Shown one piece after another: positions 1,673 through 5,082 of a stretch of 64,000 bases of DNA. The position numbers and the translations under genes were made by a program. The DNA is from Arsenophonus sp. (lineage in GTDB: Bacteria > Pseudomonadota > Gammaproteobacteria > Enterobacterales > Enterobacteriaceae): the NCBI GenBank assembly GCA_052171275.1, contig CM125795.1, forward strand, positions 651,557 through 715,556, given 5' to 3'. A model generated the notes under the pieces. That model searched no databases, had not been told where the DNA came from, and worked only from the letters and a program-made list of their open reading frames with translations. Position 1 is the stretch's first letter. Every line of letters begins with the position of its first letter.

Positions 1673-2622
1673 ATGATATATATTATATCTAGGATACCTA
1701 ATTATATGCGCTATTGTTATTAAATATTCTAGTATTATTGATCGATATGCAGATTTTTTATTTTAATTTACTCAAGATATAAATCTTCCTTTAAAGTTGA
1801 GTAATGAAATAGATAAATTTTCTAGAAATTCAATAATGATGTTTTCAGATTGTAAAACATTACATTATGATAGTTTTTCATCGCATCAAAAATTATTTTA
1901 GATAGGTTAATTAATTTTTATTCTTTTCAATTTTACAGAAAGATTTGTTAATTCTTTCAGTTAATACATTAATACAAAAAGTTTGTCTTGCTAATTTTAT
2001 AATTAGAAATATATTCATTATCAATCATAAAGGAGAAGATGTTTCGTATGAAAAATTGCGTAAAAATCTTAATAATTGTGATTATAAATATGTTAAACAA
2101 GTGTTTCATCATGGTGAATATTATATTTATGGAGAAATTTTCGATATATTTCTAATTTATAGCATTGATCCTTATCATATCAACTTTATTAATAATAAAG
2201 TTGATAAATTAAGAATTTATGATGATGATAATAGTAAATTTATTAACAGTAAAGATAAGTAGATAAATTTATTGCTTACTCATGAATTTTCAGTATATGA
2301 CAAGGTTATTAAGTTATTTTGTAGTCAGCAGCTAGAATATCTTGATATAAGACGTAATCATAAATATATTTATAAACAAATTAGTAAAAAAATATTATCA
2401 TCAGCAATTGAATATTTGGCAATTATTTTTTTAATTTTCCATTATTTTCTTTGTTTAACTACTTTCATGTTAACACTTTTCTGATTAAGAAATATCTAGT
2501 ATTAGTTACAGATAAATTTTATATGAAATTTATAATCGATATAAAGATCGAAACATTGATTTTATACACGTCCATTATTTACAATATATAGGATTTTATT
2601 AAATAGTAAAGAACTTAATAAA
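1673..2622 (+). pseudogene. mfd: Eroded N-terminal third of mfd (UvrB-homology module D1a-D2-D1b and start of D3), with multiple stops and frameshifts
   Basis: Piecewise translation still aligns with E. coli Mfd residues ~1-330:
- ILVLLIDMQIFYFNLLKI* vs PVVLIAPDMQNALRLHDEI
- NEIDKFSRNSIMMFSDCKTLHYDSFSSHQKLF* vs DEISQFTDQMVMNLADWETLPYDSFSPHQDII
- track ORF 1945-2262 (LILSVNTLIQKVC...HHGEYYIYGEIFDIF...KVDKLRIYD) vs VLIVPVNTLMQRVC...EHGEYATRGALLDLF...EIDSLRVFD
- track ORF 2272-2484 (HEFSVYDKVIKLFCSQ...HKYIYKQISKK...IEY) vs HEFPTDKAAIELFRSQ...PEHIYQQVSKG...IEY

At least five in-frame stops or frame changes are visible. Total locus length (1673-5082, ~1136 codons) is close to E. coli Mfd (1148 aa). 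Confidence 0.75.
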
Positions 2623-5082
2623 ATGATTAAAATACATCATAGTATAAATATTTCTACTAAACAAATTGCTAAAAAAGCAGATAATATTAACCTATCATGC
2701 TTAGTCTTAGCTGATCTAAACATTAATTATAAAAATAAAGATTCGTTTAATAAATTACATCAATTTATCAAAAATTTTTCTGGCCGAATTGTTTTTTCAA
2801 CAAAAAATAAAACTTGTTGTAAGATATTAAAAGAAATTTTGAAAAGAATAGAAATAAATCCTATTTTTATTAAAACGCTTAATGAAGTTAATATATCAGG
2901 ATTTTATATTACTATTAATGTAAGTGAGCATAGTTTTATTAATTATGATCAGAAAATTGTTGTTATTTGTGAAAGTGAAATATTAGATAAGCGAATTATT
3001 AATAATGATATTATCAAAAATAATACTATTAATACCGATATTTTTATTAATAATTTAACAGATTTACAAATTAACGAACCAGTTGTTCATATTGAACATG
3101 GAATAGGTCGTTTCCAAGGATTAACTATCCTAGAAACTGGAGGTCTTAAAGCTGAATATTTGATTTTGACCTATGCAGATGATGATAAACTTTATGTTCC
3201 TATTTCTTCGTTAAATTTAATTAATCGTTACAATGGTATTGGTAATGAAAATGTATCTTTACATAAATTAGGTAATGAAGTTTGGGGTAAAGTGAAAAAA
3301 AAAGCCGCCGAAAAAATTAGCGATATTGCAGCCGAATTATTGGATGTTCATGCTCAGCGTAATATAAAATTTAGTTTTGCTTTTAAACACGATAAAATCA
3401 AATATCAGATTTTTTGTCAAGATTTTCCATTTAAAACAACGATTGATCAAGAAAAAGCAATTAATGATGTTTTAAATGATATGTGTAAACCAATTGCAAT
3501 GGATCGTTTAATTTGTGGTGATGTTGGTTTTGGAAAAACTGAAGTAGCTATGCGAGCTGCATTCTTGGCAATAAGCAATAATCAACAAGTTGTAATGTTA
3601 GTACCAACGACATTATTAGCACAACAACACTTTAATAATTTCCGAACTAGGTTTTCTAATTGGCCAGTGTGTATTGAAATGTTATCACGTTTTTGTAGTC
3701 TAAAAGAACAGAGATTGATTATTAACAAAGTGTCTGAAGGGAAAATAGGTATTTTAATAGGTACTCATAAAATACTGCAAAATAATATACATTGGAAAGC
3801 ACTTGGATTATTAATTATTGATGAAGAACACCGTTTTGGTGTTAAACAGAAGGAATTGATTAAATCAATACGAGTTAATATTGATGTTTTAACGTTAACT
3901 GCAACACCTATTCCTCGTACTATTAATATAGCAATGAATGGAATTCGTGATCTATCTATTATTTCTACTCCTCCTCCTTGTCGATTATCAGTTAAAACTT
4001 TTGTTTATCAATATGATGATTTAATTGTACGAGAAGCAATTTTATATGAGATATTACGAGGTGGACAAGTTTATTATTTATTTAATAATGTAAAATATAT
4101 TGAGAAAGCCAAAGAACGTTTAGAGTTATTAGTACCTGAAGCGCGTTTCATAATTGGACATGGTCAAATGCGTGAAAGAGATCTAGAACATGTAATGAGT
4201 GATTTTTATAATCAACATTTCAATGTATTAATTTGTACAACCATTATTGAGACTGGAATAGATATTCCTAGTGTTAATACAATTATTATTGAGCGTGCAG
4301 ATCATTTTGGTTTAGCACAATTACATCAATTACGCGGGAGAGTTGGTCGTTCTTATCATCAATCCTATGCTTATTTTTTAACGCCAAATCCAAAAATAAT
4401 GACAACTGATGCTCAAAAAAAACTTAAAGCTATCGCTATTCTAGGTGATCTTGGCATAGGCCTTTCATTAGCTATTCATGATCTAGAAATTCGCGGAGCC
4501 GGAGAATTGCTTGGTCAAGAACAGAGTGGGCAAATGGTCAACATAGGATTTCATCTTTATATGGAACTATTAGAAAACGCTGTTAAGGCTTTAAATAAAG
4601 GCAATAAACCTTCTTTGGAAGAACTAATCAGTAGACAACAGACTCAAATTGAATTAAAAATGCCAGTATTGCTGCCAGATAACTATATTCCAGACGTGAA
4701 TGTTAGATTGTATTTTTATAAAAAAATAGCAAGTGTTAAACATGAAAATGAACTGAATGAATTAAAAATTGAACTAATAGATCGATTTGGTAAATTACCA
4801 GATGCAGGAATACAGTTATTGCAATCTACTGCTATTAGGATACAAGCAGAAGAATTGAATATCAAACGAATAGAAGCTCATGAAAAAGGTGGTTTTATTA
4901 AATTTAACAAACAAAATAAAATAAACATTAATTTTATTATCACGTTACTAAAGAATTCACCAGATATTTATTGCTTAGATGGACCTGATAAATTAAAGTT
5001 TGTTAAACCATTAATAAAATATGCTGAAAGGCTTGCTTTTATAAAACAATTGATAGATGATTTCGAATTGCATCAAATATAA
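2623..5082 (+). CDS. mfd: Mfd transcription-repair coupling factor, N-terminally truncated open frame (D3 remnant, RNAP-interacting domain, translocase D5/D6, D7)
   Basis: The uninterrupted 819-codon ORF aligns with E. coli Mfd from residue ~335 to the C-terminus. It keeps the RID (EPVVHIEHGIGRFQGL...YLILTYADDDKLYVPISSL) and the helicase motifs GDVGFGKTEVAMRAAF, LVPTTLLAQQH, DEEHRFGV, TATPIPRT, TTIIETGIDIP and QLHQLRGRVGRS, plus HDLEIRGAGELLG. The true start codon is uncertain because there is no convincing SD before 2623. Confidence 0.85.
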   Translation: MIKIHHSINISTKQIAKKADNINLSCLVLADLNINYKNKDSFNKLHQFIKNFSGRIVFSTKNKTCCKILKEILKRIEINPIFIKTLNEVNISGFYITINVSEHSFINYDQKIVVICESEILDKRIINNDIIKNNTINTDIFINNLTDLQINEPVVHIEHGIGRFQGLTILETGGLKAEYLILTYADDDKLYVPISSLNLINRYNGIGNENVSLHKLGNEVWGKVKKKAAEKISDIAAELLDVHAQRNIKFSFAFKHDKIKYQIFCQDFPFKTTIDQEKAINDVLNDMCKPIAMDRLICGDVGFGKTEVAMRAAFLAISNNQQVVMLVPTTLLAQQHFNNFRTRFSNWPVCIEMLSRFCSLKEQRLIINKVSEGKIGILIGTHKILQNNIHWKALGLLIIDEEHRFGVKQKELIKSIRVNIDVLTLTATPIPRTINIAMNGIRDLSIISTPPPCRLSVKTFVYQYDDLIVREAILYEILRGGQVYYLFNNVKYIEKAKERLELLVPEARFIIGHGQMRERDLEHVMSDFYNQHFNVLICTTIIETGIDIPSVNTIIIERADHFGLAQLHQLRGRVGRSYHQSYAYFLTPNPKIMTTDAQKKLKAIAILGDLGIGLSLAIHDLEIRGAGELLGQEQSGQMVNIGFHLYMELLENAVKALNKGNKPSLEELISRQQTQIELKMPVLLPDNYIPDVNVRLYFYKKIASVKHENELNELKIELIDRFGKLPDAGIQLLQSTAIRIQAEELNIKRIEAHEKGGFIKFNKQNKININFIITLLKNSPDIYCLDGPDKLKFVKPLIKYAERLAFIKQLIDDFELHQI

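What the first reader, a model, noticed from the sequence alone, without database searches (positions are those of the whole stretch)
1673..5082. Mfd split by decay: the UvrA-recruiting N-terminal module is dead, but the 819-codon RNAP-binding/translocase part is intact
**Seen in the sequence.**
- 1673-2622 still aligns residue by residue with Mfd aa ~1-330 but is broken by at least five stops or frame changes and is strongly diverged.
- The following 2460 nt form one open frame with every helicase motif, the RID and D7 preserved.
- In DNA this A/T-rich, random frames close within a few dozen codons. An 819-codon frame next to a long-dead N-terminus therefore argues for continued purifying selection on the C-terminal two thirds.

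**Established knowledge.**
- D1a-D2-D1b is the UvrB-homology module that hands off to UvrA.
- The D2-D7 contact autoinhibits the motor.
- Engineered N-terminal deletions of E. coli Mfd still bind and displace stalled RNAP, with de-repressed ATPase activity, but cannot couple to nucleotide excision repair.

**Inference.** This may be a natural separation-of-function Mfd, kept as an RNAP-clearing or replication-transcription-conflict factor after loss of transcription-coupled repair. The alternative is a very recent whole-gene pseudogene.
Basis: partly seen in the sequence, partly recalled or inferred. Interest (0 to 1): 0.7.

Follow-up and report, generated by a model that had tools for sequence, protein, structure and literature searches.

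The report
Half-dead Mfd gene, working half kept
In this insect-symbiont (Arsenophonus) genome the front third of the repair-coupling gene mfd has rotted into a pseudogene, while the rear two thirds, which bind and push RNA polymerase, stay intact under clear purifying selection; the same trimmed architecture is already known from Buchnera and Wigglesworthia.

Summary

**Remnant.** Window 1633-2622 is a decayed Mfd N-terminal UvrB-homology module (D1a-D2-D1b). It is 48% identical to the closest full-length Arsenophonus Mfd. It has 3 in-frame stops, about 7 frameshifts and its ATG changed to ATA.

**Open frame.** Window 2623-5082 is an 819-codon frame that aligns almost without gaps to E. coli Mfd 337-1144 (D3, RID, both translocase lobes, D7). 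The catalytic and regulatory residues I checked are kept.

**Selection.**
- Twelve further assembled copies, falling into two clades, carry the same arrangement.
- At least three frameshifts and the start loss are shared, so the N-terminus died before the clades split.
- Since the split the remnant gained 6.6% substitutions and about 10 indels per kb.
- The frame gained 3.05% substitutions and no indel, with dN/dS about 0.13-0.15 (p about 3e-15). None of 20,000 neutral simulations gave as few amino-acid changes.

This excludes a recent whole-gene pseudogene and sequencing error.

**Novelty.** Mfd proteins without this module are described for Buchnera, Wigglesworthia and chloroplasts (Smith et al. 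2012). I also found a 688-aa Buchnera form and a 781-aa form. This case is an independent origin caught with the fossil N-terminus still attached.

**Not tested.** The uvrABC status of the genome could not be checked, and there are no expression data.

The parts
1436..1632 (+). lolC-mfd divergent intergenic region with the presumed ancestral mfd promoter. The best sigma-70-like match is TTTATA-17-TATAAT, with the -10 at 1597-1602.
   Evidence: It has almost the same length as, and aligns well with, the intergenic region of full-length relatives L014 and L015 (81% mean column identity). The promoter-like match is 10 of 12, but the scan as a whole is not above chance (46 sites against 39 +/- 6 in shuffles). 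Divergence between clades is 3.6%, against 6.6% in neutral DNA (only 7 substitutions).
1633..2622 (+). Pseudogenised N-terminal UvrB-homology module of Mfd (D1a-D2-D1b, corresponding to residues 1 to about 330). The start codon is now ATA at 1633-1635.
   Evidence: 165/345 identities to P0003 residues 1-345, with 3 stops and about 7 frameshifts. ATG changed to ATA. 6.6% substitutions and 10 indels per kb between clades. GC is 19.7%, between the ORF (28.3%) and old deserts (10.5%).
1945..2262 (+). D2 (UvrA-binding domain) fragment, a 105-codon ORF inside the remnant. It is not conserved as an ORF in sister strains.
   Evidence: Pfam PF17757 UvrB_inter, E = 2e-12. A 1-nt deletion in L013 shortens it to 68 aa. 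It is broken by stops and frameshifts in clade B.
2623..5082 (+). Intact truncated mfd, 819 codons: D1b tail, D3, RID, relay helix, translocase lobes D5 and D6, and D7.
   Evidence: dN/dS is 0.146, p = 2.9e-15. No indel in 13 copies. Neutral simulation. GenBank holds it as MGP1871256.1, 'transcription-repair coupling factor'.
2623..2682 (+). New start codon plus an unconstrained 20-residue tail (the last helix of D1b).
   Evidence: The Met is lineage-specific; relatives have N, D, A or T at that position. There are 5 non-synonymous and 0 synonymous differences between clades in these 20 codons. The upstream sequence aaagaacttaataaa has no GG Shine-Dalgarno core.
2683..3045 (+). D3 domain (ORF residues 21-141).
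   Evidence: Pfam MFD_D3, E = 2.4e-15. Omega is 0.23 from 3 synonymous and 3 non-synonymous changes, not significant on its own.
3064..3270 (+). RNA polymerase interaction domain (RID, D4). The residue equivalent to E. coli L499 is kept.
   Evidence: Pfam CarD_TRCF_RID, E = 6e-18. Omega is 0.086. L170 corresponds to L499.
3277..4605 (+). Relay helix plus translocase lobes D5 and D6, with the SF2 motifs and the TRG motif.
   Evidence: Kept residues, in E. coli numbering: Walker A K634, Walker B D729/E730, motif VI QLRGRVGRS, TRG R953 and Q963, and W550. R929 is changed to K. Omega is 0.057 for D5 and 0.11 for D6.
4651..5082 (+). D7 (TRCF domain, the C-terminal half of the autoinhibitory clamp), followed by the stop codon.
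   Evidence: Pfam TRCF, E = 1.6e-27. The E1045/D1048/R1049 equivalents are kept. Omega is 0.27, p = 0.016. Only 4 of 43 otherwise invariant sites are changed, like the full-length relative ET-LJ4 with 5 of 48.

Best explanation
The window comes from a strongly eroding Arsenophonus insect symbiont: about 2.0 Mb, about 30% coding in this window, with non-coding 'deserts' of 7-13% GC.

**What it is.** Its mfd gene lost its 5' third, the UvrB-homology module that binds UvrA and forms half of the autoinhibitory clamp. The loss came from loss of the start codon plus frameshifts, before the sampled strains diverged. The remaining 819 codons are still a working gene. A lineage-specific ATG at 2623 now opens a protein made of D3, the RNA-polymerase-interacting domain, the two translocase lobes and D7.

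**What is shown.**
- The architecture.
- The age order: the N-terminus died first.
- Continued purifying selection on the protein sequence of the C-terminal part.

**What is inferred from established Mfd biochemistry.**
- The product still binds the beta subunit of stalled RNA polymerase through the RID, translocates on upstream DNA and pushes or dislodges the polymerase.
- It cannot recruit UvrA, so it is uncoupled from nucleotide excision repair.
- Lacking the D2-D7 clamp, it is probably less autoinhibited. [quoted passage not shown]
- Transcription most likely still starts at the ancestral promoter in the lolC-mfd spacer and runs through the 1-kb dead leader, with weak internal initiation at 2623.

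This is the same end state as the Mfd of Buchnera and Wigglesworthia, reached independently and seen here at an intermediate stage.
For: **Architecture.**
- Near-gapless alignment to E. coli Mfd 337-1144.
- Pfam D3, RID, DEAD, Helicase_C and TRCF.
- TIGR00580 score of 920 against a cut-off of 800.

**Dead N-terminus.** 3 stops, about 7 frameshifts and ATG changed to ATA.

**Order of events.**
- The frameshifts at window 1682, 1888 and 2419 and the ATA are identical in both clades.
- Other lesions are clade- or strain-specific.

**Selection on the ORF.**
- 13 copies, all 2460 nt, with no stop or indel.
- Between clades dN is 0.014, dS is 0.10-0.12 and omega is 0.11-0.15.
- There are 47 synonymous against 28 non-synonymous differences, binomial p = 2.9e-15.
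- The essential neighbour lolC has omega 0.245.
- The remnant and the downstream desert have 6.6% substitutions and 10-14 indels per kb, against 3.05% and none in the ORF.
- At that indel rate about 25 indels would be expected in the ORF (my estimate: 10-14 per kb over 2460 nt).
- With the local mutation spectrum, 75 substitutions would give 58.6 +/- 3.4 amino-acid changes and about 5 stops. The observed values are 28 and 0, and none of 20,000 simulations reached 28 or fewer.

**Conservation relative to full-length proteins.** 33 of 370 otherwise invariant sites are changed, against 34 of 404 in the full-length ET-LJ4 Mfd and 51 of 421 in Profftia.

**Key residues.** Kept, except R929 changed to K.

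**Start codon.** Only ATG codon 1 and TTG codon 73 lie upstream of the RID.

**Not an assembly error.** A Logan contig and an NCBI chromosome agree over 1100 nt of remnant, with 2 mismatches and no indel.

**Precedent.**
- Buchnera and Wigglesworthia Mfd lack the module, and those genomes lack UvrABC (PMC3488230, PMC13453472).
- A 688-aa Buchnera Mfd starts at the RID, and a 781-aa form starts at D3 in a compact genome.
- Deleting the module relieves autoinhibition in E. coli Mfd (PMC3488230, introduction).
Against: - There is no transcript, 5'-end or peptide evidence.
- The sequence before the ATG at 2623 has no GG Shine-Dalgarno core, unlike most genes in the window.
- A 1-kb untranslated leader would be unusual.
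- The promoter scan is no better than shuffled sequence.
- D3 alone has too few substitutions to show constraint. Its open frame is needed anyway to reach the RID from the only upstream start.
- Whether uvrA, uvrB and uvrC are present in this genome is unknown, so 'after loss of transcription-coupled repair' is only partly shown: the coupling domain is dead, but the state of the pathway is unknown.
- All the selection evidence rests on two shallow clades (dS about 0.1).
Confidence: 0.85

Rival explanations
1. The whole gene is a recent pseudogene. The C-terminal frame is open only because too little time has passed for it to break.
For: - The genome is eroding massively: about 30% coding with long 7-13% GC deserts.
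- Another DNA-metabolism gene, sbcB, is freshly frameshifted.
- The sequence before the new start has no clear Shine-Dalgarno core.
Against: - The N-terminus died before the two clades split.
- Since then neutral DNA next door gained 6.6% substitutions and 10-14 indels per kb, while the ORF gained 3.05% and none.
- Omega is 0.146 with p = 2.9e-15.
- None of 20,000 neutral simulations matched the observed amino-acid count, and only 0.6% stayed stop-free.
- The remnant's GC has already fallen about halfway to desert level, while the ORF has not.
Confidence: 0.03
2. The gene is really full length. The N-terminal breaks would be sequencing or assembly errors, or would be bypassed by transcriptional slippage or programmed frameshifting.
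For: AT-rich homopolymers are error-prone. Endosymbionts are known to rescue single homopolymer frameshifts by slippage (general knowledge). sbcB in this window looks like such a case.
Against: - There are about 10 lesions, including 3 nonsense codons and a lost start codon.
- The same lesions occur in five complete chromosomes, several draft MAGs and independent Logan assemblies.
- Further, different lesions occur in each clade and strain.
- Amino-acid identity has dropped to 48%.
Confidence: 0.01
3. It is a split gene. The N-terminal module would still be made as one or more separate polypeptides (for example the 105-aa D2 ORF at 1945-2262) and would work in trans with the motor part.
For: The D2 fragment still scores as UvrB_inter. 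It is an open 105-codon ORF in this strain and in L016 and L017.
Against: - That ORF starts at TTG inside the domain.
- It is cut to 68 aa by a 1-nt deletion in L013.
- It is interrupted by stops and frameshifts in clade B.
- The whole remnant evolves at the neutral rate, with indels.
Confidence: 0.02
4. The ORF is functional but translation starts elsewhere, for example at TTG codon 73 (window 2839) or, in clade B, at the upstream ATG that gives 853 aa. The product would then differ from the 819-aa protein.
For: - The first 20 codons show 5 non-synonymous and 0 synonymous changes between clades.
- The sequence before the ATG at 2623 has no clear Shine-Dalgarno core.
- In clade B a 2-nt insertion puts an upstream ATG in frame.
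Against: - The ATG at 2623 and the 40 nt before it are identical in both clades.
- It is the only ATG upstream of the RID.
- A start at codon 73 would cut D3 in half.
- The 853-aa extension is closed by a stop in clade A, so it cannot be required.
Confidence: 0.1

Closest known systems
Mfd proteins of Buchnera aphidicola and Wigglesworthia glossinidia that lack the UvrB-homology module (Smith, Pernstich and Savery 2012, PMC3488230; restated in PMC13453472)
   Same: - An obligate insect symbiont with an eroded, AT-rich genome.
- The mfd gene encodes no UvrB-homology module but keeps the RID, the translocase lobes, the hook/relay residue W550 and D7.
- My own search found a 688-aa Buchnera Mfd starting at the RID (P0172).
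   Different: - It is an independent origin in Arsenophonus (Morganellaceae); the closest relatives have full-length Mfd of 1145-1148 aa.
- The dead N-terminal DNA is still present and alignable, so the route (in-place decay plus a new internal ATG) is visible.
- D3 is retained here but absent from the 688-aa Buchnera form.
- Absence of uvrABC is documented for Buchnera and Wigglesworthia but was not tested here.
Engineered E. coli Mfd derivatives lacking the N-terminal module, or with a broken D2-D7 clamp (work cited in PMC3488230: Smith 2007, Murphy 2009, Deaconescu/Manelyte)
   Same: The same domains are removed. These constructs lose autoinhibition, and the central domains are the ones essential for RNA polymerase displacement. 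That is the functional model for the natural protein.
   Different: Those are laboratory constructs in a cell that has UvrABC. Here the truncation is natural, fixed and maintained by selection. No biochemistry exists for this protein.
Full-length Mfd retained in vesicomyid clam symbionts that have lost uvrB and uvrC (PMC5310779)
   Same: mfd is kept, expressed and under purifying selection (dN/dS about 0.25) although excision repair is broken. This points to a repair-independent role for Mfd in symbionts.
   Different: The clam symbiont Mfd is still full length (1141-1146 aa). Here the UvrA-binding module itself is gone.
Thermus thermophilus Mfd without clamp autoinhibition (PMC13453472)
   Same: It shows that a Mfd without an engaged D2-D7 clamp can be tolerated in vivo.
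   Different: Thermus Mfd still has the N-terminal module and works with UvrA.
RecG and CarD, which share the motor and the RID respectively
   Same: RecG shares the SF2 motor and TRG motif (RecG models hit residues 250-640). CarD shares the RID fold (Pfam CarD_TRCF_RID).
   Different: The ORF has both a RID and a motor, plus D7 and D3, and scores far above the RecG models as Mfd. It is an Mfd, not a RecG or a CarD.

Membership tests
Mfd / transcription-repair coupling factor (TIGR00580, PRK10689) | RNA polymerase interaction domain (D4, Pfam PF02559), with the residue equivalent to E. coli L499 | tested here: met
   PF02559 at E = 6e-18 over residues 148-203. L170 corresponds to L499.
Mfd / transcription-repair coupling factor (TIGR00580, PRK10689) | SF2 ATPase/translocase lobes with Walker A, Walker B, motif VI and the TRG motif | tested here: met
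   GFGKTEV, DEEH and QLRGRVGRS are present. The R953 and Q963 equivalents are kept; R929 is changed to K.
Mfd / transcription-repair coupling factor (TIGR00580, PRK10689) | C-terminal TRCF domain (D7, PF03461) | tested here: met
   PF03461 at E = 1.6e-27. The E1045/D1048/R1049 equivalents are kept.
Mfd / transcription-repair coupling factor (TIGR00580, PRK10689) | N-terminal UvrB-homology module (D1a-D2-D1b, PF17757) that binds UvrA | tested here: not met
   It is absent from the ORF and present only as a pseudogene with 3 stops and about 7 frameshifts at 1633-2622.
Mfd / transcription-repair coupling factor (TIGR00580, PRK10689) | Curated whole-protein score cut-off | tested here: inconclusive
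   TIGR00580 scores 920 against a cut-off of 800 and passes. The enterobacterial model PRK10689 scores 1285.7 against a cut-off of 1329 and falls just short, because a third of the protein is missing.
Mfd without the UvrB-homology module, in obligate endosymbionts (Buchnera/Wigglesworthia type) | The encoded protein lacks D1a-D2-D1b but keeps the RID, D5, D6, the hook/relay residue W550 and D7 | tested here: met
   Comparison with Buchnera P0172 and with P0134.
Mfd without the UvrB-homology module, in obligate endosymbionts (Buchnera/Wigglesworthia type) | The truncated gene is maintained by purifying selection | tested here: met
   Omega is 0.11-0.15, there are no indels, and the neutral simulation was not matched.
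Mfd without the UvrB-homology module, in obligate endosymbionts (Buchnera/Wigglesworthia type) | The genome lacks uvrA, uvrB and uvrC | not testable with these tools
   Only 64 kb of the roughly 2.02-Mb genome is in hand. No paper on these MAGs was found.
Mfd without the UvrB-homology module, in obligate endosymbionts (Buchnera/Wigglesworthia type) | Host-restricted bacterium with an eroding, AT-rich genome | tested here: met
   The closest genome is 'MAG: Arsenophonus sp.' of about 2.03 Mb. The window is about 30% coding, with deserts of 7-13% GC.
Functional RNA polymerase displacement factor | Expressed protein with ATP-dependent translocation and RNA polymerase release activity | not testable with these tools
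   This needs RNA-seq or proteomics, and biochemistry.

The most novel reading that the evidence does not exclude
The UvrA-binding module of Mfd was lost while uvrA, uvrB and uvrC are still intact in this 2-Mb genome. The symbiont would then have actively uncoupled RNA polymerase clearance from excision repair, rather than trimming a module made useless by prior loss of that repair pathway. A de-repressed, clamp-free Mfd would itself be what selection favours in a genome full of transcribed junk and replication-transcription conflicts. The conserved D7 would then give in-vivo evidence for a regulatory role of D7 that does not depend on the N-terminal module.
Probability: 0.2. Interest if true: 0.55.

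Novelty: new member of a known kind. Interest (0 to 1): 0.4.

Why it matters
[quoted passage not shown] Which of its activities matter without excision repair is still an open question.

Buchnera and Wigglesworthia show only the finished product of N-terminal loss. This Arsenophonus lineage adds three things:
- **The intermediate stage.** The dead module is still alignable next to a motor half that is demonstrably under selection.
- **A datable order of events.** Start loss and frameshifts came first, and a new internal ATG now opens the frame.
- **A set of closely related strains** on which selection can be measured domain by domain.

It gives independent, natural evidence that the RID, motor and D7 have a fitness value separate from UvrA recruitment, and that D7 stays constrained without its clamp partner. 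It is also a useful annotation lesson: GenBank lists the ORF simply as 'transcription-repair coupling factor'. The finding does not reveal a new kind of system.

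Tried and rejected
- **uvrABC.** I could not check uvrA, uvrB or uvrC. A protein search with E. coli Uvr proteins would only list enterobacterial hits, so I ran no further search on it.
- **Source paper.** Searches for the paper describing these MAGs (by 'MAG3', by coding density and genome reduction, and by accession numbers) found nothing relevant. The insect host remains unknown.
- **Promoter and terminator scan.** 46 promoter-like sites against 39 +/- 6 in shuffles, and no terminator. This is uninformative in DNA this AT-rich.
- **Conserved block before 2623.** A sliding-window look for a conserved block in the remnant upstream of 2623 showed nothing clear beyond the last roughly 40 nt.
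- **Third lineage.** ET-DL12 (L019) was meant as an independent third lineage, but it turned out to be a mosaic of the two clades' alleles. I do not count it as independent evidence.
- **Failed look-ups.** P0131 (a 901-aa truncated Mfd) could not be traced to a contig. Murphy et al. 2009 (PMC2764443) is not held, so the engineered-deletion data are cited through PMC3488230.
- **sbcB control.** I considered the truncated sbcB ORF as a second example of the same phenomenon. Translation showed it is a single homopolymer frameshift in an otherwise intact gene, which is a different situation.
- **Structure prediction.** Not run. At 64% identity and near-gapless alignment to solved E. coli Mfd structures it would add nothing.

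Full report
**Where the window comes from.** The 64-kb window is extremely AT-rich. Genes have 22-32% GC and long stretches have 7-13% GC. Only 21 ORFs reach 90 aa or more. The 17 ORFs I took as genes cover about 30% of the window. The Mfd ORF of the window is an exact match to GenBank protein MGP1871256.1, 'MAG: transcription-repair coupling factor [Arsenophonus sp.]', on a 2,020,310-bp contig. The closest species-representative genome is 'Arsenophonus sp. isolate ER-HX2-MAG3', a 2.03-Mb chromosome that is collinear with the window over 9 kb at 93.5% identity. I found no paper on these MAGs, and the insect host is unknown.

ORF 2623-5082 (819 codons) aligns to E. coli Mfd residues 337-1144 with a single one-residue gap.
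- It carries Pfam MFD_D3, CarD_TRCF_RID, DEAD, Helicase_C and TRCF.
- It passes the TIGR00580 mfd cut-off (920 against 800). It narrowly misses the full-length enterobacterial model (1285.7 against 1329) because a third of the protein is absent.
- These residues are kept, in E. coli numbering from my own knowledge of the literature: Walker A K634, Walker B D729/E730, motif VI, TRG R953 and Q963, RID L499, hook/relay W550, and the D7 clamp residues E1045/D1048/R1049. R929 is changed to K.

Upstream, a frameshift-aware alignment of residues 1-345 of the nearest full-length relative (P0003, Arsenophonus sp. ET-LJ4-MAG3, 1147 aa) maps onto window 1633-2667.
- There are 165/345 identities, three in-frame stops and about seven frame changes.
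- The original ATG is now ATA.
- The D2 fragment (1945-2262) still scores as UvrB_inter at E = 2e-12.
- The remnant starts at 1633 rather than 1673.

The 90%-identity protein cluster contains ten sequences. I retrieved DNA for twelve further copies. They fall into two clades.
- Clade A has the 819-aa form: the window, L012, L013, L016 and L017.
- Clade B has an 853-aa form, in which a 2-nt insertion puts an upstream ATG in frame: L001 and L005-L011.
- All 13 copies have exactly 2460 nt from the shared ATG to the stop, with no internal stop.

Between clades there are 74-82 nucleotide differences. dN is about 0.014, dS is 0.10-0.12 and omega is 0.11-0.15 by NG86 and YN00. That corresponds to 47 synonymous and 28 non-synonymous differences, binomial p = 2.9e-15. 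The essential neighbour lolC gives omega 0.245.

By domain, omega is 0.057 for the relay helix plus D5, 0.11 for D6, 0.086 for the RID, 0.27 for D7 (p = 0.016) and 0.23 for D3 (three of each kind, not significant). The first 20 codons have 5 non-synonymous and 0 synonymous changes, so the new N-terminal tail is unconstrained.

**Neutral yardsticks lie right next to the ORF.**
- Between the same two genomes the N-terminal remnant has 6.6% substitutions and 10 indel events in 988 nt.
- The 2 kb downstream has 6.6% substitutions and 13.7 indels per kb.
- The ORF has 3.05% substitutions and no indel.
- At the neutral indel rate about 25-34 indels would be expected in 2460 nt. This is my own multiplication of the rates.

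Using the substitution spectrum measured in the remnant and the desert, the GC-richer ORF should have gained about 216 substitutions if neutral, against 75 observed. Seventy-five neutral substitutions would cause 58.6 +/- 3.4 amino-acid changes and about 5 stop codons. The observed values are 28 and 0. None of 20,000 simulations gave 28 or fewer changes, and only 0.6% stayed stop-free.

Within clades the same contrast holds. L001 against L010, for example, has 16 substitutions and 4 indels in the remnant, against 5 substitutions in the 2.5-fold longer ORF.

**Order of events.**
- The frameshifts at window 1682, 1888 and 2419 and the ATA start are identical in both clades.
- The stops at 1656 and 2262 are specific to clade A.
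- Clade B has its own stops and frameshifts, and single strains carry private indels.
- So the N-terminus was inactivated before the clades split and has decayed independently since, while the C-terminal frame was preserved in every lineage.
- The remnant's GC (19.7%) lies about halfway between the ORF (28.3%) and old deserts (10.5%), which also argues that the death is not recent.

**Errors are excluded.** The same breaks appear in five complete chromosomes, several draft MAGs and independent Logan assemblies of sequencing runs. One Logan contig differs from an NCBI chromosome by 2 mismatches and no indel over 1100 nt of remnant.

**How conserved is the surviving part relative to full-length proteins?** At sites invariant among the other full-length Morganellaceae and Enterobacterales Mfd sequences:
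- the truncated protein has 33 changes in 370 sites;
- the full-length Mfd of the AT-rich relative ET-LJ4 has 34 in 404;
- the Profftia Mfd has 51 in 421;
- D7 alone has 4 in 43, against 5 in 48 for ET-LJ4.

D7 has thus not relaxed after losing its clamp partner D2. This fits the proposal of Smith et al. 2012 that D7 also regulates the motor through the hook, relay and TRG helices (PMC3488230).

**Start of the product.**
- The Met at 2623 is lineage-specific; relatives have N, D, A or T there.
- It is the only ATG upstream of the RID. The only other canonical start before the RID is TTG at codon 73, inside D3.
- The 40 nt before it are identical in both clades, but they contain no GG Shine-Dalgarno core, unlike most genes in the window.
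- The lolC-mfd spacer has kept its length and aligns with that of full-length relatives (81% mean column identity). It includes a TATAAT at 1597-1602.
- I infer that transcription still starts there and reads through the dead leader. This is inference only, and the promoter scan overall is no better than chance.

**Mechanism.**
- Shown: a protein-coding gene for D3, RID, D5, D6 and D7 is maintained by selection after loss of the UvrA-binding module.
- Inferred from established Mfd biochemistry (summarised in PMC3488230 and PMC13453472):
  - the product binds stalled RNA polymerase through the RID, translocates on DNA and pushes or releases the polymerase;
  - it cannot recruit UvrA;
  - without the clamp it is probably partly de-repressed, because deletion of the module relieves autoinhibition in E. 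coli Mfd.
- The selective benefit could be clearing stalled or backtracked polymerases, or easing replication-transcription conflicts. This is speculation, as it is for Buchnera.

**Comparison with what is known.** This architecture is already described.
- Smith, Pernstich and Savery (2012) noted that the Mfd genes of Buchnera, Wigglesworthia and the Arabidopsis chloroplast homologue do not encode the N-terminal module, and that those genomes lack UvrABC.
- A 2026 JBC paper repeats this and argues that such proteins are likely functional for RNA polymerase displacement.
- My search of 1.84 billion representatives recovered several short forms:
  - a 688-aa Buchnera Mfd that starts at the RID;
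  - a 781-aa form that starts at D3 and sits directly after lolCDE in a compact genome;
  - a 901-aa form that starts inside D1b.
- Vesicomyid clam symbionts keep a full-length, expressed mfd under purifying selection after losing uvrB and uvrC.

The present case is therefore a new, independent member of a known kind. All other sampled Arsenophonus Mfd sequences are full length, 1142-1148 aa.

What it adds is the intermediate stage and a population sample that lets selection be measured. Whether uvrABC are present here could not be tested. Another reduced Arsenophonus, from Ceratovacuna japonica, lacks them, but that is a different lineage.

**Verdict.**
- The biochemical role is inferred.
- Novelty is modest because the architecture is already in the literature.
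- Interest is 0.4.

Noticed in passing
window 1-64000, e.g. 5083-11674, 33400-40800, 41700-50600: Coding density is extremely low, about 30% (17 ORFs taken as genes in 64 kb). Multi-kilobase 'deserts' have only 7-13% GC, presumably the end state of old pseudogenes. This is unusual even for eroding symbionts and fits a 2-Mb genome caught mid-collapse.
   Followed up: partly
window ~30430-31832 (+): sbcB (exonuclease I) is split by what looks like a single frameshift in a poly-T run near 30530-30545. The N-terminal exonuclease part reads well in one frame, and the 340-codon ORF 30810-31832 continues in another. It is either a very recent pseudogene or a gene rescued by slippage. It contrasts with the roughly 10 lesions in the mfd N-terminus.
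   Followed up: partly
window 2623-2682: The first 20 codons of the truncated mfd have 5 non-synonymous and 0 synonymous differences between the two clades. The new N-terminal tail is unconstrained, or evolving faster than neutral.
   Followed up: partly
L001 5899-6000 (clade B) vs window 2521-2622: In clade B a 2-nt insertion puts an upstream ATG in frame, so annotation gives 853 aa instead of 819. In clade A the same stretch is closed by a stop. The true start in clade B is unknown.
   Followed up: partly
L019 1-2135 (Arsenophonus sp. ET-DL12-MAG3): This partial mfd contig is a mosaic. It carries clade-A alleles at both ends and clade-B alleles in the middle, with the pattern AAAAAABA, then a long run of B, then AAAABBBAAB. 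This means recombination between lineages, a mixed infection, or a chimeric assembly.
   Followed up: partly
L018 5001-7346 (Logan SRR31023095 contig); P0172; P0131: Other naturally truncated Mfd proteins turned up. A 688-aa Buchnera form starts at the RID. A 901-aa form starts inside D1b. The cut point differs between lineages.
   Followed up: partly
window 25849-28449 (+): RNase E is 866 aa and matches only positions 1-854 of the 1068-position enterobacterial model, so the C-terminal scaffold region is shortened.
   Followed up: no
window 19957-20520 (+): A 187-codon ORF lies antisense to fabD. It is the longest ORF in the window to which I assigned no gene, and is most likely a chance antisense frame.
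   Followed up: no
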